Shown here in pieces: positions 29,994-44,442 of a DNA stretch of 64,000 nt (position 1 is the stretch's first letter; each line of letters starts with the position of its first letter). The stretch comes from Mayamaea pseudoterrestris. Its lineage: Eukaryota. The notes below the pieces were generated by a model. It was not told where the DNA came from, ran no database searches, and worked only from the letters and a program-made list of their open reading frames with translations. Location: the NCBI GenBank assembly GCA_027923505.1, contig BROI01000015.1, forward strand, positions 496,001 through 560,000, read 5' to 3'. The translations under genes and the position numbers were made by a program.

Positions 29994-30716
29994 TCAAGAG
30001 CTAGTCAAACCTTTCAGTGCCTCTGCCAAAGCTGCTGCGTCCGCTGCTTCCATTCCTTCCTCGAGTCCCTCCTCGGTAATGATTTCAACCAAATGGCGCT
30101 GGAGTTCTTCATCGTCCATTTGAAAATCGTCATCGCCCAAATCAGAGCCGGGAGCATCACTCCAAAAGCAACTCGCTCCCAAGTCCTGCTTGATATACTC
30201 TTCGTTTGCTTGTTCCATGACGGAGGCGTCGCAGAAACTGTCATTTTCGTCACTCGAATGACTGCTGAGGTCACTCTCCTTGTCCGAGTCATCCTCGCCT
30301 TCCCCAGCCTTTATAGAATTTGTTACTGCAGTAGGCGATGGAATCTCGGAAATCTCATCCTCGACAACGTTAATCTTGGTCCCATTCGTCAAATCTCTTT
30401 GTAGAAGTGACCGCCTTGATTGTGCAGCGCCCATCGTGCGCTTGCTCCGACTATGGGCCGACGTGTGCAGATCAAAATCAAGGTCTACTTTCGGACGACT
30501 CGTTCCATAGGCTAAAAAGGTTATGGGAAGAGTAATTCCATCTGGCAGCGACGGCCGACGTTGCTTTCTCGTGTCATCGGCATGGTGCGACAACGCCAAT
30601 CGTTCCTTGACGGCTCCCTCAGCACTCAGATTGGAGTTGTCTAGACTGCTGCGACGACGAGCGGGCGGCTTGCGATGGAAACTGACATCCAAGGTTGTTT
30701 CAAGTGGATGAGGCAT
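29994..30716 (-). CDS. Hypothetical acidic low-complexity protein
   Basis: Uninterrupted 240-aa ORF with RRxS phosphosite-like motifs (RRRSSL, RRPSL, RRSLL) and a D/E-rich C-terminus. Confidence 0.7.
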   Translation of the reverse strand: MPHPLETTLDVSFHRKPPARRRSSLDNSNLSAEGAVKERLALSHHADDTRKQRRPSLPDGITLPITFLAYGTSRPKVDLDFDLHTSAHSRSKRTMGAAQSRRSLLQRDLTNGTKINVVEDEISEIPSPTAVTNSIKAGEGEDDSDKESDLSSHSSDENDSFCDASVMEQANEEYIKQDLGASCFWSDAPGSDLGDDDFQMDDEELQRHLVEIITEEGLEEGMEAADAAALAEALKGLTSS

Positions 30717-30878
30717 TGCAATATACAATTGCACTCACGTAGTAGAGTTATCTTCATACGTTTGCCGGTGATCCGTACGTAGACGTCGTGAAAGAAGGAT
30801 GATCCGGACGCTTGTCGCGAGTCATCTAATACGGTCATTCTCAAGCGCTTTTCGCAAACGTTTGGGCAGTAATAACAA

Positions 30879-31189
30879 TGACGTAATTGACACTGGCACT
30901 CGTTTCGTTTTATTGCCCTGTGACGTAATTGACACTGGCACTCGTTTCACACTATTGACATATGACGCAGTTTTCACTGGCACCCGTTTCTACTATTGTC
31001 TCATGACGTAGTTCTCACTGGCACTCGTTTCATTGTATTGCCCTATGACGCAGTTTTCACTGGCACTCGTTTCGTACTATTGCCCTATGACGAAGTTTTT
31101 ACTGGCACTCGTTTCACATTATTGCCTCGTGACGTAGTTCTCACTGGCACCCGTTTCATACTATTGCCTCATGACGTGGTCTTGCTGGC
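30879..31189 (+). repeat. Tandem array A of a 42-bp unit (7 units plus a partial)
   Basis: Units start at 30879, 30921, 30963, 31004, 31046, 31088, 31130 and (partial) 31172. Consensus is approximately TGACGYAGTTTTCACTGGCACYCGTTTC-NNNNTATTGCCYYR. Confidence 0.97.
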
Positions 31190-31994
31190 TTGAAGCACCG
31201 CGATTCTGTACTACTTTCCTCGTCTGCCGCTCGAGCAATGTTAAGTTGTGATCCCGCACAATTGCTCCTCTTTTCATCTGTCGGAGCTAAACGTATACTA
31301 AATAATCACATGGGTACTTTCTTGGAGTCATACCGGAAGCGTACTGTACTCATTATTTGATATGATATGTACTCCTTTGCAAAGACACTTGCTTGGTTGC
31401 AGATCGCAGCCTACTATCATTGCAAGTTGAAGGCGGTCGACTGCATTTGATGCGACAATCTCGATATGATTCCTCAAACGCTCGATAATAATTTGGCATG
31501 CAAAAGAACAGATCTGAAAAATGGTGTCTGCGATAAGCAAAACTCTACTTGCGCAGACACATGTGGCTGCATTCATTTCGCTGGTCGAGTCGACCTGAGC
31601 CCGAACTCTTCCTGCAAGGCATTACGATGCACATGAGGAATGAAGGGCTCGCTAGAAGATTCATGGTCCGGCGCTACAGTTGGTGCCAATTTTGAGCTTG
31701 GCGCACCAGATACGCTGTCCGCAGTCGCATTTTCCCTTTTTTGGAGACGGTGGTTCGGCAAATGCTGGACTTCCTGACTAATGACTAATGGCGTGCTGTA
31801 AATTACCGGTAGCAATGAGCTGTGTCTACTTCTTTGGTTCTGATTTAATCCAACGGCTGCCACTCACTCACGGCGCACCTTGTTTCCCAACGGCCCAAAG
31901 GTGCACGAACTGATCTACCGTAAAGGTACAACCATACTGTGAGCGAACCACCGTCCGATAAAGTACATGCATTGCATCCATCAGAACTTACACA

Positions 31995-32558
31995 ATGGGA
32001 AATGATATTAGCTTTGCTCATGAATCTGGGCCGCACGCCTCCATTGCCGCAGCTGCAGTCGATCCTGTATTGAGCCGTCAGAATCAAGACCAACGCATCA
32101 ATGTGTCACAAGACCACAAGGCGTCAGCATCCGTTGCTACCGAAAAAATTCAAAATCTGCGAGCATCCTCCAAGAAACATCGAACACCACCGGTGGTGTC
32201 CGGCCAAGACGTTGCGCATCGCTTGCAGCCTCGCTACAAGCGCCACTTCGAGCCAGTGTATCGTTCCGACAGTCAAGTTGTCGCCTCCAAATCAGAGTTG
32301 ACACCGTCCAATGAGGCAACACTGATCCAAAAGCTCAAACACAATGCGTACCAAGCCATTCTGTTGCATGCCTCGGCAACGGGACGAAATGCCGTCCTCG
32401 ATCTTAGTTACAGCGTTTCGGTCGACGCGTGCGGCCCATCTGGAAAGGCCAGACGCGTACTTGTCACGGCACGAGGAACACCCACGGTCATTGTCCAAGA
32501 AATTCCTCTTTCGTCCCGCATGGCGCGTCAAGTCCCACTGCCATACATGGCTGTTTAA
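31995..32558 (+). CDS. YbjQ-like (heavy-metal-binding-like) domain protein, possibly N-myristoylated
   Basis: MGNDIS start. AYQAILLHASATGRNAVLDLSYS...VLVTARGTP resembles the YbjQ pattern A-x3-G-x-NAV...A-x-GT. Confidence 0.6.
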   Translation: MGNDISFAHESGPHASIAAAAVDPVLSRQNQDQRINVSQDHKASASVATEKIQNLRASSKKHRTPPVVSGQDVAHRLQPRYKRHFEPVYRSDSQVVASKSELTPSNEATLIQKLKHNAYQAILLHASATGRNAVLDLSYSVSVDACGPSGKARRVLVTARGTPTVIVQEIPLSSRMARQVPLPYMAV

Positions 32559-33773
32559 GCTAACGAGTCGGCGTCAAGGCGTCGCCGTGGTTTTTATAGT
32601 CGGAGAACAGAAATATTATAAATGCGTGCGTTGATGTTTCGTTTCCATCGATGCTACTGTGACATTCGTCAATGCTAGACACATGTACGGTAGCGTTTTT
32701 ATTTTTATTAAAGAGAGGCCAAGCTTCCGGCTGAAATTTTGCGGCGGGGAGCGGACAACTGCAATGGAGGGTTGACGAAAAGCAAGCTCGTGTTTCGTAA
32801 GAGAACTATCACACAACTTCGCAAGCCTTTTTATAACATGTTGAAAACAGGTCGCCACGCTTCCTCGTCATGTGCACCAATTGTCTTTGACGAAAGTGGC
32901 GCTGGCATGAGCTTTCTGCACGGGTGCATCTTAAACAAATGCATACAGCTAGTGCTTGATTAGCATGTGCATCGGTAGGTACGTATATACTGCACTTATC
33001 ATCCAACATAGGCGCTGTACTGCTTTCTCGCAAACAAGTGCGATGCAGCGCGCACACTAGGCCCAAATGCTGAAATACCATTTAATCTCGCACCGACTCC
33101 ATCATAGCAGCTTTAAATCCTCCAGTTGATTGTTCCATTAAAAGCCATTGGCCAAATTATATTCCATATTCCCAGCATCCGGCATCGTCGCCGTGCAATG
33201 AGGAACAGTGCATGAAAAAGTGAGCAATCTCAGCTCCCACCAACACTTAATTTCAGACTCGCAAGATGACTCCATCATAGCAGCTTCGCATACTGTAGCT
33301 GATTCATGGCCTGGCAGCAAATGATAGCCGATGATTGACCCGTTGAAAGCCATTGGTAATAAGTAGGACGTAGTATTATACATATTACAGTATGTTGTGG
33401 CTCATGTGCAATTTAGTGGCCAAGGATTGATACCTATGCACGACAAGGATTTTCGGAAATGTCAGAGTAACAAGTTCTGGTTATTTGCTATATAATCTGA
33501 GTACTTGGCAAAGTGCTTACAAGAGAAACCAGTCCATGGTGCATGGTTCATGGTCCATGGTAAAAGGTAGAAGCAGCGATACACAATTGAATCGTTGCGA
33601 TACACAGTTCAGGTGTCTTACTGGCAATGCAGAATTCATTCGCGTGGGCAGGCCGCGTCATTTATTTACGGTTATACGACGGTTTACTTGACATCTCGAC
33701 CATGGCAGCGGCAACACAAATCCGCAACAGTTGCAGCTCTATCATCATCTTTCGTTTCGTTTTCGCCTTCAAC

Positions 33774-35390
33774 ATGGACAAGTCAAATAAGAATACCAGC
33801 GACGAGAACTATGTCGCCAAAGAACTTGTTTTGTCATTGTCGCATCAGGTGTCATTTTTCTCGTCGCCCAAAAAGTCAGCTCACCAACGTGGTTCCTTTC
33901 CCTCCCCTCGCTGCCGCTCCTTGTCGCCCGTCCAAGATAAGATTGTACCGGACAAGACACGCAAGTGTAGCTCTCTCACTAAGCGCTCTTTGACGCGAGA
34001 CGAAGTTGAGAATTCATGTCCGACGCCTATGACGCTGGTTGATTCCCAGTGGCCTCCGCAGCAGCCGCAGCTCTGCACATTGCCACCAGCCCAGGATTCA
34101 TATGCGTTGTTGAAATCCAAAGATACTTCCGATGAGCCTTCACAGCAACCTCATTCGCCGGCCGAACCAGCCAAGGATTCGCCTTGCAAGGAGAAGCTTC
34201 AGCTTCATTCATCACCATCAGAGCCTTCCCATGGTCCACCTTTGCTCCAGTACGAAAAGGCCACCGTCGAGCAACAAGTCGCAAAACTCCAAGCCGAGAA
34301 GGCCACCGTCGAGCTACAAGTCGCAATGCTTCATCGCGAGAAGACTATCATTGAAGGACGAGTTGCCAAGCTCCGTGTCGAAGAAGACGCTCACTTTCGT
34401 GACTTGCTGAAATTTCACGAGGAGAAGGGCGCCCTCACGTGGCAAAAGAAGTACGTCGAGCTCGAGACCACGATTATCGAACGCGAAAAACTTTTAAGCG
34501 AGCAGCAGAAAGCCGAGCTGACCGAGCGTGCCATGTCTCTCCAGAAACAAGAGCACGAACTCGACCAGGAAAAGATCGCATTTTTGAAGGGAAAGGAGGA
34601 GCTCAAGCTATCGCAGGCAGCCTTTTTCAAAGAAAAAGAGGAATTCAAACGGACCAAGGAATTTATTATGGCGAAGTTCCAGGAGGCGAAAGAGGAAACT
34701 GGTACCATGGAAGATTTCGCCTCTTCCACGCCGATGGAGTTCAAAAACATTACTTGCTGGACGAATGATGCGTTTCGCGCCAGCAACGACAACGCCTCGG
34801 AGGGAGACCTTGGGATGTCCTCGGTAACGGAACAATACCGCGGCACTCTCTCTTGCTGGACCCATGATCAGCTTTCGAACAAGCATCGCTTGGAAAAAAT
34901 CGTTCGGGAATCTGAGGGACCCGACAAAATCGTCTTTGTTTTGACGCAGGATTCATTTATTGTCAAGGATGGATTTATTGTTGTGCCGGACGCACTAAAG
35001 CAAACATTTGAACGCTGCAAGGACGAAATTCCTGAAATTCCTGATATTCGCGTCGACATTAAATATTATGCTTGGTCCGAATCCAAAACGGAATTGGTTT
35101 TTAAACACTACAAATCCTTGCTCGCCAATGCTCGCTCCCTCGCTATGGAAGGTCAAATGTTGCACGTCGTCATGACTCCACGCATTGCTGGGATGATTTC
35201 GTATGAGAAGGCGGCGATGCTAGGCGACACGTATGTCATGAGTTCGACCCTTCCTGTTGCCTTCGCGGCGACCGGAGGCAACGAGCACCAGAACGACGAG
35301 AACCTTGCTTCCGCGGATATCGTCGAAACTCGGGAGCTCAAGCGCAAATTGAAAAAGAAAAATATGTGCAAGGCTATCCGTTGCGGATGA
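33774..35390 (+). CDS. Orphan coiled-coil protein
   Basis: Intronless ORF with a 14-aa tandem repeat (EKATVEQQVAKLQA), a long E/K coiled coil and an unrecognised globular C-terminus. Start taken at MDKSN. Confidence 0.7.
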   Translation: MDKSNKNTSDENYVAKELVLSLSHQVSFFSSPKKSAHQRGSFPSPRCRSLSPVQDKIVPDKTRKCSSLTKRSLTRDEVENSCPTPMTLVDSQWPPQQPQLCTLPPAQDSYALLKSKDTSDEPSQQPHSPAEPAKDSPCKEKLQLHSSPSEPSHGPPLLQYEKATVEQQVAKLQAEKATVELQVAMLHREKTIIEGRVAKLRVEEDAHFRDLLKFHEEKGALTWQKKYVELETTIIEREKLLSEQQKAELTERAMSLQKQEHELDQEKIAFLKGKEELKLSQAAFFKEKEEFKRTKEFIMAKFQEAKEETGTMEDFASSTPMEFKNITCWTNDAFRASNDNASEGDLGMSSVTEQYRGTLSCWTHDQLSNKHRLEKIVRESEGPDKIVFVLTQDSFIVKDGFIVVPDALKQTFERCKDEIPEIPDIRVDIKYYAWSESKTELVFKHYKSLLANARSLAMEGQMLHVVMTPRIAGMISYEKAAMLGDTYVMSSTLPVAFAATGGNEHQNDENLASADIVETRELKRKLKKKNMCKAIRCG

Positions 35391-35795
35391 ATCTCCGGAT
35401 GACGACTACATTTTCGTGTAAACTAAAACTGCGTATCCACAAACTAATAATTTAGTCTTGTACCACACAGTCGCTTTTGTACAACTACACCGCGTGGTCG
35501 TCATGTCCAATTGGTTTTCTGCAGTAGTCACATGAATTGCTGGCTTGTCCATGGAGATAAACGATGGGTCTGAGCAGTCGTTTACATCTCCTTTCGTCAG
35601 ACGAGATGAGAAACACCTCAACGTTCATTTATAATGCTGTGATACGCTAGATCAACTCTTTGCATCGATATAAGCAAGGTTCTGTAGTGTTTCGAGTGAG
35701 TCTAATCTGCGCCTTGATTGATGACCAAATGACCGGAACAGCATTGACGCCCTTTTATCGTCCGCGTTGGACCTTTCCACATGGAAATCCTCCGC

Positions 35796-37306
35796 CTAGT
35801 CGAGGGTAGCATCAAGTTTCGTGAGCGACTGTCGCCAGTAATCATCACTGGGAAAGTGTTCGTCGTAGTCATCATCTCGCTCCGTTCGTATCTCTCGAAA
35901 CGGCATTAACGATGTTGTTAACTTTGTCTGTAGCGGCAGCATTCCAATGCCAAAGCGTCCTTTTAATATGGAATCGCGTAGTGTGTTGATTCCAATGATT
36001 ATGCGTTTAATGGCACTTGTCGGTTTTGGGCCAAAGGACAAATCAAAAAGTGCCTTGGCTTCTGGCACTTGCTGAATCGAGTATTCGAGCAATGCTTTCC
36101 GCAGCGAAAGTTTCTTGTTTTCAGCATTATAATGCTTGTTTAGCATATCAACCAAAAGCATGGCATCAACGAGGGCGGAATTGACGCCTTGTCCAGAGAC
36201 GCCTCCTGTAGCATGCGCCGCATCACCGAGCAAGACAGCTTTGTGTGAGTAAGCAAATGTGTTGCACTTGACTAAAGAGGCCGTTGATGTTTCTGGGGTG
36301 GCAGCTAATTGTCTGGCGACTTCCGCCAGGTCCGCTCCTTGAAGTTTGGGCCATCGCGCAGACAAGACTTGCTCAAGCTCGGTTGTATTACTACTGCTCA
36401 GCACAGTATCAGTAGCGTTGTTGCCTGCGAATAGTATGCAACAGGAGCCTTGTTTTGTCGGCTCAATGAAGGCAGTCACTGCACCAGCCTTGGGTAAAAG
36501 TAGCGCGACGGCAGTCGCATCCACACGCGGAGGCATGAATTCAAGTCGAACGACCTTGTAATGGCCGGGAATGGGCTCTCGTACCGTCTCAAATGCCGGC
36601 CATGTCTCGTCGATGGCTTTGCGAACAACCGAGTTGACGCCATCACATCCAAGAACGACATCAAATTTCATTGTTTCTCCTTTGGACGTCGTCAATTGCT
36701 GCTTGGTCAAGTCGATGGTTTGCACGCGTTGATCAAAGTAGAATTGAACCAATCCACTGTTCGAATGTCGTTTCTCCAGCTCATCCACCAGCACTCGACA
36801 CAGATCATTCTGATATAGCAATATACTCGGCTCAACGACACGGCCTTGCTCGGGTTGTTCCCCATCGCCAACGTCGCGAAGGCGTAGCTTGAGGCCAAAC
36901 GGCAAGTACAAGTCGAATCGTTCCGACGCGAAGCCTTGACTGCGAATGGCGTTCCATAGCTCCATGTCAACACTTTTAATGCTGGTTCGGCCTCGTCTTC
37001 CAATGCCCAAGGCGTACGCGCGCCCCTTGTCGGTCGGACTGAACCGCGGCCGGCCTTCCAGCAGCGAACACTTGCGCCAGCTTGTGCAAGTCGATGAGCC
37101 GCTAGCAAGCCACTCGGGCCAGCGCCAACAATGCAGATTGACAACGAAGTGAGATCATTTGTTCTTGATGATATTAAAGATGATTTGGAAGATAGTGCAA
37201 ATGGCGACACTGTAGATTGTTTGTTAGCTGGTTTCTCGCTCAGTGGAAAAGTAAAGCATGAAGCTGCATTGCTCGAAAGCAGAAATACAAGAAACTTTGC
37301 AAGCAT
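35796..37306 (-). CDS. FAD-dependent monooxygenase (kynurenine 3-monooxygenase-like), plastid-type presequence, frameshifted near 37065
   Basis: IVGAGPSGL lies in one frame; GCDGVNSVVR and LLGDAAHATGGVSGQGVN lie in another. One missing base links them. Confidence 0.85.
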
Positions 37307-38552
37307 GGCTTCTTGATGCGACTACGTCAATGAGCCTTGTTCGTGAGAACCTTAGGACCTTATTCGCTGGTCGCCTCTGCGTGCGTTAACTGTAAAACGA
37401 AGAGATCGATTTCACCCGATCGTCCTCCATGGTTGGCGCAAACGTTTCGACGAGATGGAGTACGCACGTGTATCAAGGATCGCATATCAGTCATATCCGC
37501 CTACAGCTGTTTCAAGTGAAAGAAAATGTGACACAATGATATTTCCGGCTGTTTCGTCCTTGTTGAGGTTCTCAAAACGCTGATTTACGCTATGCTTCCT
37601 TTTGCGGCTTCATCATCCTCGAGGCAAGCTCGACTTGCTGCTCGCATAATTCTCATAAAACAACAAGCTGTCAAACTTGTTGAGCACTGCCGAGGTTTGG
37701 GATGCAGCGCATATTCTCGTCATTGGCGGTATGAATGATGATGAACGCCACCCTTGAACACTTGCAATTGGCTATTTTGGTTGAACAGGAAATGACTTTA
37801 AGAACGTTGTGTGGATAACGTCGTGCTGAACAAAAGCATCAAGCGTTTGGCCTTGCCGACTGTACAATAAACGAGTGATTTCATTGTAGTCGAGCTCTGC
37901 GAGATCCAATTGCCCAAAGCCATTTGGAGGGCCTGGGCCTATCGTGGGCAAGCTCTGGCTTGTCCGAGGAAGCAATATCAGCTATTTCAACTGACTTGGC
38001 TACCGGTACAAGCATTATCCACACGACAACTGCGATTGTGCGGCATCGCTTCAGCTTTAACATGTGGAATCCCGGTTATTGCACACTGGCAAGAGCAAGC
38101 AGACCCGCAGCTTCGCACTCTCCATCTCATCTTCCGTGGTAGTATATCCAAATAATATAATAGCAGCGGTTGGAATACGTTTTTAGAGACGCGCTTTGCT
38201 AGCGAAAGCTTTTTGGTTTGATAACTATTGAGAGATTTAGTGCAAGTAATTTCAAGGACTTGACCAGAGTTCGAGTTTTCATCACATTGAGCTAAGGAAA
38301 AAGTCAATAAGTTTAAATCAACTTCACTTGAGTGACTCCGCAGCAACCATAACTTGGTGGGCAAGATTTCAGCTCCCCCTTGGCTTCGGAGAGGATAGCT
38401 ACTACTTTATGCATGTAGCGCTGCGACTTTTCATTGCATCGAATCCTTTCGCCTTCTGCAAGCACGGCATCATCGCGATCATTGATCATTCGACTCGTTC
38501 CCAGATTCTGCACCAACGACGCACCTGCTAGTCTTTGAAATCTTAGAGAGCC

Positions 38553-41500
38553 ATGTCGCACATAGAGCCTCTCTTGCCAAAGGATCTCGACGTGGAGGAA
38601 GCCGAGACGGCAAACATCGAGTCGTTGGAGCAAGGGGTGCTGAGTTCGACGAAACACGATTATATTCAAGGCGATGGAGTCAATAGCCGCAGCTTTTCCC
38701 TGCCATCAAGTACTAAAAGGAAGTTTCAGCGTGGAGTTCGCAAGGCCATGATCGCCAAACAGCTTGCAAATAACAAGGTCGGAGTTCATCGTCGGAAAAA
38801 CTCGACTGCCAAGGACATGCTCCGTCAAATTTCAATCGACACTTCGAATGCTGCTTGTACTCAGAATTCTACACAGCAAAGCAAGAGCCATCAGTCTCGT
38901 CGCAGTTTTGAAGACGTCATGTTTCTTACACCGCTTCTTGACGATACTGACAGTGCGGATTCTGCTGATGACGACGGCAACGACAACAATGGAGGCACTC
39001 AATACGGAACATTGCCTGGAAGCAGATCATCGCATCGACTCAGCCGGCCCATCAACACAAATGCAAACACTGATTCATTTTGTTGGAGTAGTCGCATTTC
39101 TCGCAACTTTTGCTGGACTTCTATACAAGCGGTTTTTCACAGCATGCTCCTATGGATTGCCCTGCCATGCGCGATAGCCGCGCTCATTCTCTACTACATG
39201 TTTTCCAATCCAGTCATTGACTTTTTGCCGGGATCTGTCACGATTGCCTGGTGGTTCAACTTCGCTGCGAGACAAACTGTCACTTTTGAACTTGCGCGGT
39301 TGCTGCAGTATGTATTTGTGGATTCCTTGCTGCTCAAGTCAAGGTGGGATCACAGTCAGATAGTGAGCTTTGTCGCATACCACGTACAAGGATGGCCCTT
39401 CATTCTTATTGCGTGGGCGACGATTGACATGTTTGTATTGCATGGCAACAATCAATACCACCTGCATTGGCTTTGGTGGACGAAGTGGAAGATTTACACC
39501 AGCGAGGCAAACTCGGGTGCTTACATTTTGACGTCTGGACTGTACCTGCGTATTCTACTGTCCATGATGTTTCTTGGTGTTGCAACTGCCACCAAACGAT
39601 GCATATTGGAATTGAAATTTGGAGGAAGACTTCATAGGACATTTCAGCCGAAGCTAGAGCAAATTTTGAGGGTACAATCGTCGCACATGTGACTCGGAAA
39701 CGGTTCGTCATTTACTAACTCCTTTTCATACTTGTTCGTCGCAGGAAATTGTGCTTGTGACTGAAATAGCTGCGCTTGGGGAAGAGGCCGACCGTGTGGA
39801 AGATTTGGAAGATGTCGATACGGCGAGTTTTCGAACAAAGGTCGATCAGGACATTGGTGTGGCCTCACAGGCGGTCAATTGGTCCACCGCTAGCATCGCC
39901 AACCTTTCCAATGCCAATTCGGCGGCGGGGAATGCACCGACCCCGGGCGCGGTGGATAGTAGCAAGGAAGGTGCAGGTGTGGACTTGACTGCAGCAGTCT
40001 TAAGTAATGGAAACAATTCAATCGCCGGCATCGAAGCTTTTCTCGATCGTTGGGAAGAGCCGACGCACAATGGTAAAAAGGTACGGGCAAAAAAGGTGAT
40101 ATTTATGTAGCGAATGGGACATTGACTCACCATCTCTTGACAATGCGTATTAGGACTCGGTTATTGGAGTAAATGACGCAGTAACGTTTCGTCAAGTCCT
40201 TGCCCACTTGAGGAAAAAGACACCTTTTGGTGAATCGTTTGGCCCGACCTGGAACCGGCAAGTAACTATCACATCCTCGCAAACATTATACAATCGCTTG
40301 CTAAAGCTTTCCGATGCATCGATGAAGTCTCTTCCATTCGATACACTTTCAGTCATAGCTTATGGAAGCGATGGTACGATGGACAATGCCAAGCTCGATG
40401 CGGTGCGCAAAGTATTCTGTCCTGATGCACAAGGACAACTCCCTTTGATCGCCTTTGTTGGTTCAGTCGATGCTGTATACAAGCGACTTCGATTCTTCCA
40501 GGCGTCGGTAGCAAATGCTTCCAAGCTTGATAAAGTGCTAGAGGATACGCTGAATGTGGTTTTCTTCTTCGTATTGGGATTGCTGATTCTTGTTTTCATG
40601 AACTTTAACCCTTGGCCAGTTCTCGTCTCCATCACTTCACTGCTTGGTACGTGATCACCACTTGTAAACAAGATTTATAACGTGTAGGCAGAACTTGACT
40701 GACTCTCTTTGTTGCTGCAGTCTCTGTATCCTTTGCTTTGGGTACCAGCTTGTCAAAATGGGTGGAAGGAATTTTGCTCATCGCCGTTCGACGTCCTTAC
40801 GATCTCGGAGACAGGATCATCATCACAAGGTAAGATGATTGTGAAGTGCACTACAATTACGCTCGTTCGTCAGATTAACAACATTTTCCTTGTTGCGCAG
40901 CGCTGAATCTCTTGAAAGCCCTGGGTCGTCTGCGAGTTGGTATGTTGAGGGTAAGTATCATATTCCCACTCGAAGAAAGCGCTATTCGCAACAGATCGCT
41001 CACTCCACAATCGTTTGAATCAGATATCAACTTGTTTTCGACCACGTTGCGGTACGCACGGACGAATGAGGTCAGCTCATTGAACAATTCGAGCATTGCT
41101 GCGAGCCGCATCATTAACTGCAACCGCTCCAGCCACGCCATTGTTTTTCTGGACAAGGTCACTCATATTTCAATTCTCGACAGCAAGAATCTTGAGCAGT
41201 TTCAATTGAGTCTTGAAAACTATGTGCGTGATCACCCTCGTATTTGGGACAGTCTCGCATTTCTTCGCATCGAAAGCATAGATACGAATGAGGAGCAAGT
41301 CAAGTTCTCCATGGCCTTCCGACACCGCAATAGTTGGCAGGATGCAGGCCGGATTCTTCTGAATCGCGCCGACTTGGTGCGCTTCGTCTTTGATGCGCTG
41401 AAAGGTAAGCACAGTAAACGGCTAAATTTTTTGTCCCATTTGCTTCAACTCACTTTACTACGCGTTGCTCTTTTGGCGCGTACCCAGGCCTTGACGCTGC

Positions 41501-41681
41501 ATATGACACTCCGCCTATTCGCCAATTGGTGTATTATGGTGGTGAACTAGAGGAGGGACAAGTGAAGGATTACAAGCTCAACCTTTTGAACGCTGCGAAC
41601 ATTCGGAAAAAGTCTGGTCGTCCGCAGAGTCTTTCCGTCGACCTTTTCGATAGTTTACAAAAGCCTTTGGAAGGGGAGTAA
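38553..41681 (+). CDS. MscS-like mechanosensitive channel, multi-exon
   Basis: TM-rich exon 1; SFALG...GILLIAVRRPYDLGDRI; DINLFSTTLRY...LNNSSIAASRIINCNRS; HRNSWQD. Last exon ends KPLEGE* at 41681. Confidence 0.88.
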
Positions 41682-41742
41682 AATGGATGAAATATATTCA
41701 CTGGTCTTATATGTGCAGTGCTTTCTCTAGAGTGTTAAATGA

Positions 41743-42714
41743 CTACCTTGCGGCTTCTAAGCTAGCTCCTACATTCTTCGCACCGGCTTCATCGTCCTCG
41801 TCGTCATCCACGTCCGTCTGAAAGAATGTATAGCTCAACGTGACGCTTCTCACATAGCTGACCTGAGGATCCTTCAAAAAGTCTGGATCGATAAAGAAGA
41901 AGACAGGCATGTCGACCGTTTCGCCCGGCAGCAATCGCTGCTCCTCAAAGCAAAAGCACTGAATCTTTTGAAAGTACAGGCCCACCTTCGGCGGATGTAC
42001 ATTATAAGTAGCAACGCCAGTGATGGCCTTGTCAGAGTGGTTGGTGACGCGAAAGAAACTCAGAGCAGTTTCGCCTGGAACAACCTTGACATCCAACTGC
42101 ACTGGCACAAAGCTCCATGGAAGTACATCACCAACCGTGGTATCAAAGCGAATCGTGACCATATCGGCATTCTTGACGGGCTTCAAAGACGCCAATCGCG
42201 CGGCAGCATCCTCGTCGGTCCACGTATGGACTCGCGTGGAGCTGCCAGAGTTGCCAAAGAAGGCCGGTAGCTGGACTCGATCAAGTGCGGCTTGAAACAA
42301 GGCTGCGACGGAACCCTCCTCGGGAGGCGCTTCATTGATTTGAAAGCGCTGCGTCGTTCCGCCAAAGCCGGTCGTTTGACAGAAAACCTTGTAGAGTGGC
42401 ACGGCTGCGTAGGTTGCCGCAAGCGCCCCAATCACGACGGCGGCAGCGTACCAGGCTATCTGCACGTTGCGTTCCTCCATGGAAATAATGCCGTTGCGGT
42501 TCGATGACTTGTTGTTTCCAAATAGTTTGTAGTAGAGTGTATCTTCACGCTTGCGTTTATAATAATCTAAAGCTGATTGCTGGCGGCGGTGGACATCATC
42601 CGAAAACAAGCGACGACGCATGGTGCAGATGCGCGTCATGTCGACATTTATTCGCTGCATCGCTCTGCATCGCAATTCTGAAGCAAACACGATATTTCTA
42701 ACCAATCTGTGCAT
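41743..42714 (-). CDS. COX11: Cytochrome c oxidase copper chaperone COX11
   Basis: YAAVPLYKVFCQTTGFGG, GVATYNV, YFQKIQCFCFEEQ and TLSYTFF. Confidence 0.97.
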   Translation of the reverse strand: MHRLVRNIVFASELRCRAMQRINVDMTRICTMRRRLFSDDVHRRQQSALDYYKRKREDTLYYKLFGNNKSSNRNGIISMEERNVQIAWYAAAVVIGALAATYAAVPLYKVFCQTTGFGGTTQRFQINEAPPEEGSVAALFQAALDRVQLPAFFGNSGSSTRVHTWTDEDAAARLASLKPVKNADMVTIRFDTTVGDVLPWSFVPVQLDVKVVPGETALSFFRVTNHSDKAITGVATYNVHPPKVGLYFQKIQCFCFEEQRLLPGETVDMPVFFFIDPDFLKDPQVSYVRSVTLSYTFFQTDVDDDEDDEAGAKNVGASLEAAR

Positions 42715-42866
42715 CTTGTTCTCTATGTAAGGTAATGAAGAGTCAATAAAACGATTACCAGTGGATGTGGGATGCTATTTCGGCCATGGTCGCGCGTCGC
42801 ATGAATGCGGTGGTCGACACTCGCCTTTCGCTTTTCAAGAGTGCTCTTCGCCTACCACTTGTTTAA

Positions 42867-43034
42867 CCGGGCAATAGTATGAAACGGGTGCCAGTGAAAA
42901 CTGCGTCATTAGGCAATATCGTGAAACGGATGCCAGTGAAAACTGCGTCACAAGACTGTATTGTGAAACGGGTGCCAGTGAAAACTGCGTCACAAGGCAA
43001 TATCATGAAACGAGTGCCAGTGAAAACTGCGTCA
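42867..43034 (-). repeat. Tandem array B of the same 42-bp unit as array A (4 units), inverted
   Basis: Plus strand GAAACGRRTGCCAGTGAAAACTGCGTCA ends at 42908, 42950, 42992 and 43034, the reverse complement of the array A core. Confidence 0.97.
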
Positions 43035-43203
43035 TACATATATGTGCCTAAAGCGACAGCAGGTGCCACTGCGCCATCTCACCATTGACAAAAATGACCG
43101 AGCGATGACTGATGCGCGCGCATCCAAGATCCGCGTCCGCTTCACCCTCTCGTTGTTCATTCCCCGGAGTGCTCGTCATTTATTGCACGTCCATTCATCT
43201 AAC

Positions 43204-44442
43204 ATGGCCGACACGACCGATCTGCAAGCTCAGCTCAAGGCGCTCGAGGAGCAGCTACAGCGCAAACGTCTTGAGGAAGAAATTGCGCACCTCCAGCTTC
43301 AGTTGGTTTCAGCTTCCAAAGGAAGTGGATCGTTGAGCAATAGTCATCGATTTGCTCCTGCAGTCGCTGCTCAAGTCGACGACGACGAAGAGTATGAAGA
43401 AGAGGAATACACCGAGGAATACGTTGAGGACGAAATGGACGAAGCAGTCATTGTCGAGATAGAACCGGCTCGAGCAGCACCTGGTACACCGTCCCAAGCA
43501 AACGGAGGAGCTGTTCCTCCACAAAACAAGCGGCAAAGCGTTCAGCCAGTGCAACAAACAACTACAGGCGGAGGAATGTTAATGCCAAAAGTTAGATCTG
43601 CTGCGCCCGCCCATTCAAAAACAGCTCCACGATGTACTGCATCAGACACATCGGCATTGTACGACGAACTTAGGGAGCTTGAAGAGGAACTCAAGCGCAA
43701 ACAACTAGAGGAGGAACTGAAAGCGCCTGAACAACAAGCTGCTTCTATGCAAGTTGCTGATGGAACAATTTTGAAACAATCTTTGACACGTTCAGCTTCT
43801 CCTTCGAGCAGGTCAACATCATCCGTCGCCGAACCGTCAGCTCCATTCAAACAGCGCGTCATTCCAAACATTCAAGCCTCTCCGGCCGGACAAGAAACAC
43901 CAATGGAACTCTTGCTTGGCCCAAAGCTGTACAAGAATGGCAAGCTAGTTGCAACAACCACTCGTGCGGGCTGTGAGAGTCAACAAATCATGCTCCTCTT
44001 CTTTGCCGCATCATGGAATCGACTCTGCAAACCATTCTTTCCCAAATTGCTGGACTTTTACAAGCTTGTCAACCAGCCTCATGCCGTCGAATGCATTTAC
44101 GTCTCGACCGATCGCAATTTGAACGAGTTCAAGGAGGCTTTTGCGAAAATGCCCTACCTTGCCATGCCAACTGGCACGGCCGATTACAAGAATCGCATTG
44201 CCAAGGAATTAAAAATTTTGGAGGTTCCCTTTTTGGTCGTCTTGGACGTGGCCACGGCTCAAGTGATTACAACCAACGGAATGGATTTGGTGGACCGGTT
44301 GGAACGAGGTAATTGGGAGCAGGCTAATGCATTGGTCGAAGATTGGAAGCGAGCAACACCAGTGCCGCTTGACCAAGTGCAACTGGATACGCGGCTCGTA
44401 AATGGAGTCATGGAGCGAGGAATACTGTACTGGCACAATTAA
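43204..44442 (+). CDS. Nucleoredoxin/tryparedoxin-like thioredoxin-fold protein with long coiled-coil N-terminus
   Basis: LLFFAASWNRLCKPFFPKLLDFY, IYVSTDR, MPYLAMP and VPFLVVLD...ITTNG. Confidence 0.85.
   Translation: MADTTDLQAQLKALEEQLQRKRLEEEIAHLQLQLVSASKGSGSLSNSHRFAPAVAAQVDDDEEYEEEEYTEEYVEDEMDEAVIVEIEPARAAPGTPSQANGGAVPPQNKRQSVQPVQQTTTGGGMLMPKVRSAAPAHSKTAPRCTASDTSALYDELRELEEELKRKQLEEELKAPEQQAASMQVADGTILKQSLTRSASPSSRSTSSVAEPSAPFKQRVIPNIQASPAGQETPMELLLGPKLYKNGKLVATTTRAGCESQQIMLLFFAASWNRLCKPFFPKLLDFYKLVNQPHAVECIYVSTDRNLNEFKEAFAKMPYLAMPTGTADYKNRIAKELKILEVPFLVVLDVATAQVITTNGMDLVDRLERGNWEQANALVEDWKRATPVPLDQVQLDTRLVNGVMERGILYWHN

What the first reader, a model, noticed from the sequence alone, without database searches (positions are those of the whole stretch)
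30879..43034. One 42-bp repeat family forms two inverted arrays 11.7 kb apart, both in divergent-promoter gaps
Seen: array A (+, 7 units, 30879-31189) and array B (-, 4 units, 42867-43034) share the core TGACGCAGTTTTCACTGGCACYCGTTTC, and I see no homology between their flanks. A lies between the starts of the 30716(-) and 31995(+) genes; B lies between COX11(-) and the 43204(+) gene. Inference: a dispersed minisatellite family, either spread by a non-autonomous mobile element or kept as a cis-regulatory module in bidirectional promoters. The inverted copies could also mediate inversion of the enclosed block.
Basis: partly seen in the sequence, partly recalled or inferred. Interest (0 to 1): 0.8.

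Follow-up and report, generated by a model that had tools for sequence, protein, structure and literature searches.

The report
Promoter-seeking diatom minisatellite family
The two mirror-image repeats are ordinary copies of a 42-base repeat found at well over a hundred places in this diatom genome, almost always just in front of genes, and the repeat contains DNA words of the kind gene-control proteins bind, so it may spread into, and possibly rewire, gene promoters.

Summary
Both arrays are real (A 30879-31177, +, 7 units; B 43034-42869, -, 4 units). They are 2 of roughly 170 arrays of a genome-wide 42-bp minisatellite (590 exact junctions, control 0). They are not a special pair: no target-site duplication, no transposase, and their units are no closer than average. 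The promoter idea holds genome-wide: 71 of 103 classified arrays lie in divergent gaps (control 36%) and 3 in convergent gaps (16%). B is truly bidirectional; A hugs only the left gene. 680 of 875 units carry TGACG[T/C], the diatom bZIP/aureochrome site. 23 of 124 arrays, A and B included, begin with GGC exactly 14 nt before the first TGACG. The composite RGGC-WWWW-N-TA-NNN-RTGAC also occurs at 16 array-free sites (3.4 per other spacing). Arrays travel with short promoter fragments, cluster regionally and co-cluster with a second ~50-bp family. Best reading: a satellite built of protein-binding sites that spreads by ectopic repair into open promoters at TGACG; binding, mechanism and function are inferred. 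No evidence for inversion. The scan noted this family before on other DNA of this genome (e1-7561235, e1-7562079).

The parts
30864..30883 (+). 5' terminal composite motif of array A: RGGC, AT-rich tract with TA, then ATGACG (GGC 14 nt before the first TGACG); overlaps the first unit
   Evidence: (L207)
30879..31177 (+). Array A: 7 full 42-bp units (one of 41 bp) ending on a final TGACGT
29994..30716 (-). Gene whose proximal promoter holds array A (240-aa acidic protein, no Pfam family); run X4 contig covers 30024-30788, about 75 bp short of the array's outer motif
31796..31878 (-). 83-nt GT-AG intron of a minus-strand, apparently non-coding transcript between array A and ORF 31995
   Evidence: joint 31795-31879 in run X4, one contig; spliced frames score -3.5 to -6.5 in the coding model
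31995..32558 (+). Weakly supported ORF (187 aa), about 820 bp from array A; C2CD5-like lead only
   Evidence: coding score 9-12; no Pfam family; atlas score 0.88
31178..42868 (.). Enclosed 11.7-kb block: ordinary host genes (FAD-binding oxidoreductase, COX11, unknowns); no transposase or recombinase domain among its long ORFs
   Evidence: flat depth in DNA-like runs X1 and X2
41743..42714 (-). COX11 (PF04442); run X4 contig ends at 42732
42784..42789 (.). CCATGG, a word enriched upstream of genes and in array flanks; here about 50 bp upstream of the COX11 RNA contig end and not the COX11 start codon
42869..43034 (-). Array B: 4 units of 42 bp, ending on the TA-N-WWWW-GCCY motif
43030..43049 (-). 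5' terminal composite motif of array B (same layout as in A)
   Evidence: (L208)
43204..44442 (+). Thioredoxin-like gene (PF13905); 16 homologues besides itself; the upstream ATG extension 43042-43203 scores as non-coding

Best explanation
A and B are two independent copies of a lineage-restricted, dispersed minisatellite whose 42-bp unit strings together protein-binding-type motifs: a bZIP/CRE-type TGACG[T/C], a nearly invariant 16-nt core, and a TA-N-WWWW-GCCY site. Shown: about 170 short arrays (3-24 units) that sit in proximal, mostly divergent promoters, end preferentially around the GCC/TGACG junction, often start at a promoter motif that also occurs without arrays, and are sometimes copied with 20-1300 bp of flank to unrelated promoters. 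Inferred: DNA breaks in open promoter DNA are repaired with another array (chromosomal or circular) as template, pairing through the shared TGACG, so that a native site becomes an array; unequal exchange then changes unit number. Promoters tolerate the arrays because the units keep or add binding sites. Most arrays, including this pair, are passengers with possible local effects on expression, not a switch.
For: Dispersal and head-to-tail structure. Promoter bias: 71/103 divergent against 36.3%, 3/103 convergent against 16.0%, 66/103 within 200 bp of a start-side coding segment against 35.4%; 58/83, 2/83 and 55/83 after dropping flank-sharing duplicates and the window pair. Ends: 73/124 5' ends fall in an 8-nt zone and 65/124 3' ends in a 12-nt zone at the TGACG box (about 24 and 35 if uniform). 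GGC at offset -14 in 23/124 arrays against a mean of 1.8 and a maximum of 7 at other offsets. Composite motif 32 against 0 reversed; 16 of the 32 are array-free, against 3.4 per other spacing. Array-plus-flank modules at non-homologous loci, e.g. L134/L166 with different neighbour genes; the C9 duplication L119/L120 breaks 4 nt after the last core. Regional clustering and co-clustering with a second family. Mixed neighbour functions. Analogy: Rsp-like spread by microhomology and circles (PMC7403614, passages).
Against: No empty (pre-insertion) site was found among the fetched loci (output partly cut), and both DNA-like runs carry both flank-array junctions of A, so no insertion event was seen directly. 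Only 1 two-unit block is shared between non-paralogous arrays (shuffle mean 0.2), so block copying between loci is not recent or frequent. TGACG[T/C] is only modestly enriched in array-free upstream DNA (1.84 per kb against 1.21 downstream and 1.42 coding). End mapping by score extension is biased towards conserved boxes. Promoter bias and kept motifs are also what selection for function predicts. Gene calls come from my own Markov model trained on the same loci.
Confidence: 0.52

Rival explanations
1. The arrays are kept by selection as cis-regulatory modules: homotypic clusters for a bZIP factor (aureochrome or CO2/cAMP-type) plus an unknown partner, which activate, open or insulate bidirectional promoters.
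For: 680/875 units keep TGACGT or TGACGC, the aureo box and CCRE-1/CCRE-3 of Phaeodactylum (PMC4937327, PMC4915529, passages). At four W positions of the spacer, A-T swaps outnumber transitions 141 to 35 at array level, against about 22 to 34 in paralogous flanks (the 34 assumes half of 68 transitions, and events are not independent). The composite has a fixed spacing outside arrays and recurs 4-5 times in an unrelated C27 upstream repeat. The genome has 19 bZIP matches, 14 over the cut-off. 42 bp is four helical turns (own knowledge).
Against: Neighbours with a Pfam family (66 of 119) span tubulin, proteasome, helicases, RPA1, transporters and metabolism; only 4 are carbon-fixation or light-harvesting genes (no control set scanned). 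Megabase stretches lack arrays, and a second family clusters in the same regions. Unit number differs between paralogous copies (11 against 8, 8 against 4). No arrays in 241 million metagenome records.
Confidence: 0.22
2. The arrays are relics of a promoter-targeting DNA transposon (PIF/Harbinger- or Mutator-like): RGGC...GCCY are its terminal inverted repeats, the units are amplified subterminal transposase-binding repeats, and the partner gene is lost or undetected.
For: The 5' motif is the reverse complement of the unit's 3' motif and 23/124 arrays carry it at a fixed place. GGC-starting TIRs are typical of PIF/Harbinger (recalled). Local clustering fits local hopping. MITE-derived motif pairs became promoters in Caenorhabditis (10.1101/2022.01.21.477252, passages).
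Against: No TSD excess over shuffled pairs (this test is blind to 2-3 bp), and no matching 3-bp TSD by eye in the RGGC-class arrays. About four fifths of arrays lack the 5' motif, and 3' ends often run past GCCY into TGACGT. The motif occurs alone at 16 sites with no partner end in view. The 3 DDE_Tnp_4 loci carry neither core nor composite; that search scored only 3 candidates.
Confidence: 0.14
3. A and B are the two ends of one 12-kb invertible or mobile block.
For: They are inverted, and both carry the terminal motif at their outer ends. Arrays mark duplication breakpoints elsewhere.
Against: B ranks 87th of 123 by unit similarity to A, and A 41st for B; the A-B distance of 8.27/42 equals the between-array mean of 8.20. 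Longest exact match 30 nt, no TSD at the outer ends. No recombinase or transposase inside. With about 170 arrays in clusters, half of neighbouring pairs are inverted by chance (inference).
Confidence: 0.03
4. The arrays are structural chromosome elements: replication origins, cohesin or insulator sites, or dispersed centromere units.
For: Arrays are short, phased, intergenic and of similar length (mode 8 units). Origins often lie in promoters (own knowledge).
Against: A 2.25-Mb stretch of C1 has no exact junction (p = 0.001), and six contigs over 0.4 Mb show no hit for two complete patterns (one of them, C5, does have arrays by other searches). There are many arrays per contig and they are not AT-rich.
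Confidence: 0.05

Closest known systems
Dispersed euchromatic satellites: Drosophila Rsp-like and 1.688 (PMC7403614, passages) and Tribolium Cast1-9 and TCAST (10.1101/2023.04.24.538079, passages; PMC5844308, abstract and outline)
   Same: Short head-to-tail arrays scattered among genes, regional clustering, two families mixing at the same loci, junctions at shared short words, movement of larger mixed blocks.
   Different: Here the unit is 42 bp and the bias is to proximal and divergent promoters; TCAST repeats are enriched in introns. The seed appears to be a short promoter motif, not an older satellite. No large heterochromatic block of this family was seen (longest array 24 units), and circles were not testable.
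CERP2/CELE2 MITE-derived m1m2 promoter motifs bound by HIM-17 in Caenorhabditis (10.1101/2022.01.21.477252, passages)
   Same: A repeat spreads a two-part motif, in two relative orientations with set spacing, into promoters.
   Different: Those are MITEs with inverted repeats, a known binding protein and reporter proof; here the arrays are tandem, no TSD or binding protein is known, and target genes share no evident programme.
Diatom CCREs and the aureochrome 'aureo box' (PMC4915529, PMC4937327, passages)
   Same: TGACGT and TGACGC are the two commonest forms of the unit's first box, upstream of genes in a diatom.
   Different: Known cases are one to three isolated sites; here 3-24 phased copies sit in a mobile repeat with a second motif. 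Binding was not tested.
Fission-yeast ade6-M26 hotspot (ATGACGT bound by Atf1-Pcr1; PMC9775316, passages)
   Same: 228 of 875 units carry ATGACGT; a bZIP site that opens chromatin and draws breaks would supply the inferred trigger.
   Different: No link to recombination or Spo11 is shown in this organism; analogy only.
PIF/Harbinger MITEs (recalled)
   Same: GGC-starting inverted motif pair; intergenic, gene-proximal sites.
   Different: No TSD, variable ends, motif present in only about a fifth of 5' ends, no matching autonomous element found.

Membership tests
Dispersed euchromatic satellite / minisatellite | Head-to-tail repeats of one short unit | tested here: met
   Spacing 42 in 539 and 43 in 69 of the unit intervals in 109 arrays
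Dispersed euchromatic satellite / minisatellite | Many short arrays at unrelated loci without shared termini | tested here: met
   124 arrays examined, about 169 estimated; 20 pairs share any flank
Dispersed euchromatic satellite / minisatellite | Homogenisation within and between arrays | tested here: met
   Mean unit distance 6.35/42 within and 8.20/42 between arrays; both main unit types occur at first, middle and last positions
Dispersed euchromatic satellite / minisatellite | Junctions at short shared words | tested here: inconclusive
   Ends cluster at the TGACG box but no empty site was found
Dispersed euchromatic satellite / minisatellite | Presence on extrachromosomal circles | not testable with these tools
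   Only contigs were available
PIF/Harbinger or Mutator MITE | Terminal inverted repeats at both ends of most copies | tested here: not met
   5' motif in 23 of 124 arrays; 3' ends spread
PIF/Harbinger or Mutator MITE | Target-site duplication | tested here: not met
   No excess over shuffled pairs in 108 arrays (blind to 2-3 bp); none at the A/B outer ends
PIF/Harbinger or Mutator MITE | Autonomous partner sharing the ends | tested here: inconclusive
   3 of 3 DDE_Tnp_4 loci lack core and composite; Mutator and other transposases were not searched genome-wide
Helitron/Helentron-carried tandem repeat | Conserved terminal boxes flanking the array | tested here: not met
   Shared flanks differ from pair to pair; no common box
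bZIP cis-regulatory module (CCRE / aureo box) | TGACGT or TGACGC motif | tested here: met
   680 of 875 units
bZIP cis-regulatory module (CCRE / aureo box) | Position in the proximal upstream region | tested here: met
   66 of 103 within 200 bp of a start-side coding segment, control 35%
bZIP cis-regulatory module (CCRE / aureo box) | Functionally coherent target genes | tested here: not met
   Mixed Pfam families in 66 of 119 neighbours
bZIP cis-regulatory module (CCRE / aureo box) | Factor binding and effect on transcription | not testable with these tools
   Needs EMSA, ChIP or reporters
Invertible DNA switch | Inverted repeats flanking the segment | tested here: met
Invertible DNA switch | Dedicated recombinase or a privileged repeat pair | tested here: not met
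   No such domain among 35 window ORFs; A-B similarity is average
Invertible DNA switch | Both orientations present | tested here: inconclusive
   Contigs break inside the arrays, so none spans one
CRISPR-like or SIRC repeat-spacer cassette | Unrelated spacers between direct repeats | tested here: not met
   The 14-nt variable part has one consensus; SIRC definition from the abstract only

The most novel reading that the evidence does not exclude
An enzyme-free selfish promoter element: phased bZIP/M26-like sites plus a partner site open chromatin and attract DNA breaks, and repair templated by other arrays converts native RGGC-WWWW-N-TA-NNN-RTGAC promoter sites into new arrays. Over a hundred housekeeping promoters would thereby be wired, in one lineage, to a light- or CO2-responsive bZIP factor, and the fixed-spacing composite would be an undescribed diatom cis-element.
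Probability: 0.13. Interest if true: 0.82.

Novelty: new variant of a known kind. Interest (0 to 1): 0.5.

Why it matters
Dispersed satellites near genes are known, but one with this strong a bias to proximal, divergent promoters, made of recognisable transcription-factor words and starting at a motif that also occurs without arrays, makes two questions testable in a small genome: how satellites choose landing sites, and whether they rewire gene control. The composite motif with its fixed 3-nt gap is a concrete candidate cis-element for diatoms, and array B is a ready 489-bp bidirectional promoter for reporters.

Tried and rejected
Giant element or inversion pair: rejected. The opposite-strand joint 30878/42870 in X1, X2 and X3 has sides of only 30-31 letters; both coordinates are array edges that also receive jumps from inside the arrays (table 5c), and the join reads as a normal unit junction of another array, so it is not counted as inversion evidence (my reading). 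TSD search: no excess. Harbinger link, suggested by note e1-7561765: the 3 DDE_Tnp_4 loci lack the motifs. Structured RNA or hairpin: array A folds no better than shuffles (z = 0.72); no Rfam match in 29-45 kb. Expression of the repeat: no RNA holder is listed; X4, spliced by its joints, shows no depth spike over the arrays, but contigs cannot give RNA levels, so this is not used as evidence. Relatives: 43 metagenome loci each hold a single 18-nt match and were not examined further; no synteny in relatives could be checked. Empty sites: none seen among fetched loci; the output was cut and the shown rows were partial units or the 50-bp family. Shared unit order between arrays: 1 case. Position of the 16 array-free composite sites: 11 have a start-facing coding segment within about 350 bp (weak score threshold), 1 is in coding DNA, 4 have no gene call; this fits promoters but is not clearly above the 49-59% of non-coding control positions at 300-400 bp. 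Subtelomeric bias: not significant within contigs (p = 0.65). Array orientation does not predict which start is nearer (37 of 71). The wider context of the C27 repeat (L210/L211) was not fetched, so its identity is open.
Full report
OBSERVATION. Both arrays are in the sequence. The 28-nt core occurs 7 times on + from 30879 and 4 times on - from 43034, with 0-4 mismatches; TRF finds period 42 at both places. A ends at 31177 on a final TGACGT. The flanks share nothing (E >= 0.93). The host is a compact eukaryote (30.6 Mb, 41 contigs); a neighbour gene elsewhere matches the diatom pyrenoid shell family.

LOCAL ANATOMY. B fills a 489-bp gap between COX11 (-) and a thioredoxin-like gene (+), 155 bp from each start. 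A lies 148 bp upstream of the 30716(-) gene; a contig of run X4 covers 30024-30788, about 75 bp short of the array's outer motif. The right-hand ORF at 31995 is weak (score 9-12, no Pfam, atlas lead 0.88) and about 820 bp away. X4 shows a minus-strand transcript with an 83-nt GT-AG intron at 31796-31878 whose frames score as non-coding. So A is promoter-proximal on one side only. The enclosed block holds ordinary genes at flat depth.

A GENOME-WIDE FAMILY. An exact junction pattern matches 590 times, control 0. I fetched loci found and analysed 124 arrays with 875 units; they hold 433 exact junctions, which scales to about 169 arrays. In the first 109 arrays the size is 3-24 units, mode 8. Units differ by 6.35 of 42 within and 8.20 between arrays; A and B differ by 8.27, B ranks 87th of 123 for A and A 41st for B; their longest exact match is 30 nt. 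In 241 million metagenome records an 18-nt part gave 43 single hits and no array.

PROMOTER BIAS. I called coding segments with a Markov model trained on 198 long ORFs of these loci; 66 of 119 start-facing neighbours submitted (of 124, five duplicates dropped) have a Pfam family on the called strand. Of 109 arrays, 103 could be classified: 71 divergent, 29 tandem, 3 convergent. Length-weighted control from twenty 8-kb stretches and the window (100 gaps, 55.8 kb): 36.3%, 47.7%, 16.0%; p = 2e-11 and 2e-5. 66 of 103 lie within 200 bp of a start-side segment against 35.4%. After dropping one member of flank-sharing pairs, twin arrays and the window pair: 58, 23, 2 of 83, and 55 of 83. In tandem gaps 22 of 29 are nearer the start. 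CCATGG, enriched in array-free upstream DNA (1.66 against 0.40 per kb downstream), is at 3.07 per kb in array flanks (both strands counted).

UNIT ANATOMY. The unit has a TGACG[T/C] box (680 of 875), a nearly invariant 16-nt core (partly by construction, as it was my anchor) and a variable part with TA-N-WWWW-GCCY (470 of 875 exact). TGACGT is the aureochrome box and CCRE-1, TGACGC is CCRE-3 in Phaeodactylum (PMC4937327, PMC4915529; passages). At the four W positions, A-T swaps outnumber transitions 141 to 35 at array level, unlike paralogous flanks (22 to about 34). This suggests constraint, but the variants are not independent. The genome has 19 bZIP matches.

A TERMINAL MOTIF THAT ALSO LIVES ALONE. 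GGC stands exactly 14 nt before the first TGACG in 23 of 124 arrays, A and B included (other offsets: mean 1.8, maximum 7). It belongs to RGGC-WWWW-N-TA, the reverse complement of the unit's own motif, with varied letters between. The strict composite with a 3-nt gap to RTGAC matches 32 times, reversed control 0; A and B match a looser form (19 against 1). Of the 32, 12 start arrays, 4 lie in an unrelated upstream repeat on C27, and 16 have no core nearby. Gaps of 0-2 and 4-9 nt give 1-6 matches each, mean 3.4, so the 16 array-free sites are in excess (p = 7e-7; 15 after merging paralogues, 4e-6). The gap was fixed from arrays before these sites were counted. Eleven of the 16 have a start-facing coding segment nearby, which is not clearly above background. 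The half-site alone is mildly enriched (240 against 150), and the unit's orientation occurs 12 times against 0 outside intact cores, some at array edges.

HOW IT MOVES. There is no TSD excess, no common terminus, no transposase among 119 neighbours (two aspartyl-protease hits), and the 3 DDE_Tnp_4 loci lack both motifs. Ends cluster at the TGACG box: 73 of 124 5' ends in 8 positions, 65 of 124 3' ends in 12 (extension bias applies). Twenty array pairs share flank; several share only a short block: L134/L166 about 110 bp plus array plus 20 bp, beside different genes; L081/L125 26 plus 254; L133/L165 112 plus 224; L111/L143 19 plus 1312. A C9 duplication breaks 4 nt after the last core. Arrays are clustered (30 on C1-C4: largest gap 2.25 Mb, p = 0.001; median spacing 67 kb, p = 0.0002) and denser on small contigs (1.35 to 4.33 per Mb for 85 loci of two complete patterns). 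A second, ~50-bp family (75 hits, control 0) has 29 of 50 loci within 50 kb of those 85 (null 31%, 0 of 5000). Against: no empty site was found, only 1 shared two-unit block, and both DNA-like runs carry A's two junctions.

MECHANISM. Shown: position, anatomy, terminal motif, block sharing, clustering. Inferred: breaks in open promoters are repaired from another array through the shared TGACG, turning a native site into an array, as proposed for Rsp-like satellites through microhomology and circles (PMC7403614, passages) and for Cast satellites (10.1101/2023.04.24.538079, passages). 228 of 875 units carry ATGACGT, the M26 hotspot word of fission yeast (PMC9775316, passages); this is analogy only. 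I give this reading 0.52, a selected regulatory module 0.22 (neighbour genes are mixed and large regions lack arrays), a transposon relic 0.14, a structural element 0.05, an invertible A-B block 0.03.

INVERSION. Contigs break inside the arrays, so orientation is untested. The opposite-strand joint 30878/42870 has 30-31-letter sides at array edges and reads as another array's unit junction.

NOVELTY. It is a member of the dispersed euchromatic satellites; it works in part like the MITE-derived promoter motifs of Caenorhabditis but fails MITE membership. The scan reported this family twice on other DNA of this genome as an ordinary satellite. Added here: the measured promoter bias, the fixed-gap composite with array-free sites, block transfer and the co-clustered second family. 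Interest 0.5; new variant of a known kind.

Noticed in passing
L142:2912-2996, L155:3042-3127, L167:2875-3042, L165:3600-3900, also L098, L222, L223, L245; genome-wide list: A second dispersed ~50-bp minisatellite family (75 exact hits at about 50 loci, control 0) that shares AGTGCCA with the 42-bp unit, abuts some 42-bp arrays and clusters in the same regions.
   Followed up: partly
L210:1479-1781 and L211:1479-1770 (G000 C27): An unrelated upstream repeat with 4-5 copies of the composite motif, in front of a degenerate gene for an acidic repeat protein; the left side of L211 holds broken frames.
   Followed up: partly
window 31796-31878 (-): Spliced, apparently non-coding transcript running from near the 31995 start towards array A; seen in one contig of run X4.
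   Followed up: partly
L093:2634-2994 and L102:2528-2970: Back-to-back pairs of oppositely oriented 42-bp arrays, about 30 bp apart or overlapping.
   Followed up: no
L095:2601-2807: An array whose own spacers carry the GGC motif in flipped orientation, one base closer to TGACG than in terminal motifs.
   Followed up: no
L119/L120 (C9 782 and 792 kb), L137/L138, L107, L110/L231, L105/L229, L227/L230: Near-identical segmental duplications that include arrays; the C9 one breaks at the array end. Some could be assembly artefacts or haplotypes.
   Followed up: partly
array-free upstream regions of control and array loci; window 42784-42789: CCATGG is about four times more frequent upstream of genes than downstream and higher still in array flanks; part may be start codons, but the copy near COX11 is not.
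   Followed up: partly
G000 C3:747691, 748676, 751017, 752002; C1:1043856/1043920 and 1281165/1281229: Repeated pairs of the RGGC half-site at fixed distances (985 bp; 64 bp), possibly belonging to other repeated elements.
   Followed up: no
window 31995-32558 (+): ORF with a myristoylation-like start (recalled pattern) and a weak C2CD5/YbjQ-like lead in the atlas (0.88).
   Followed up: partly
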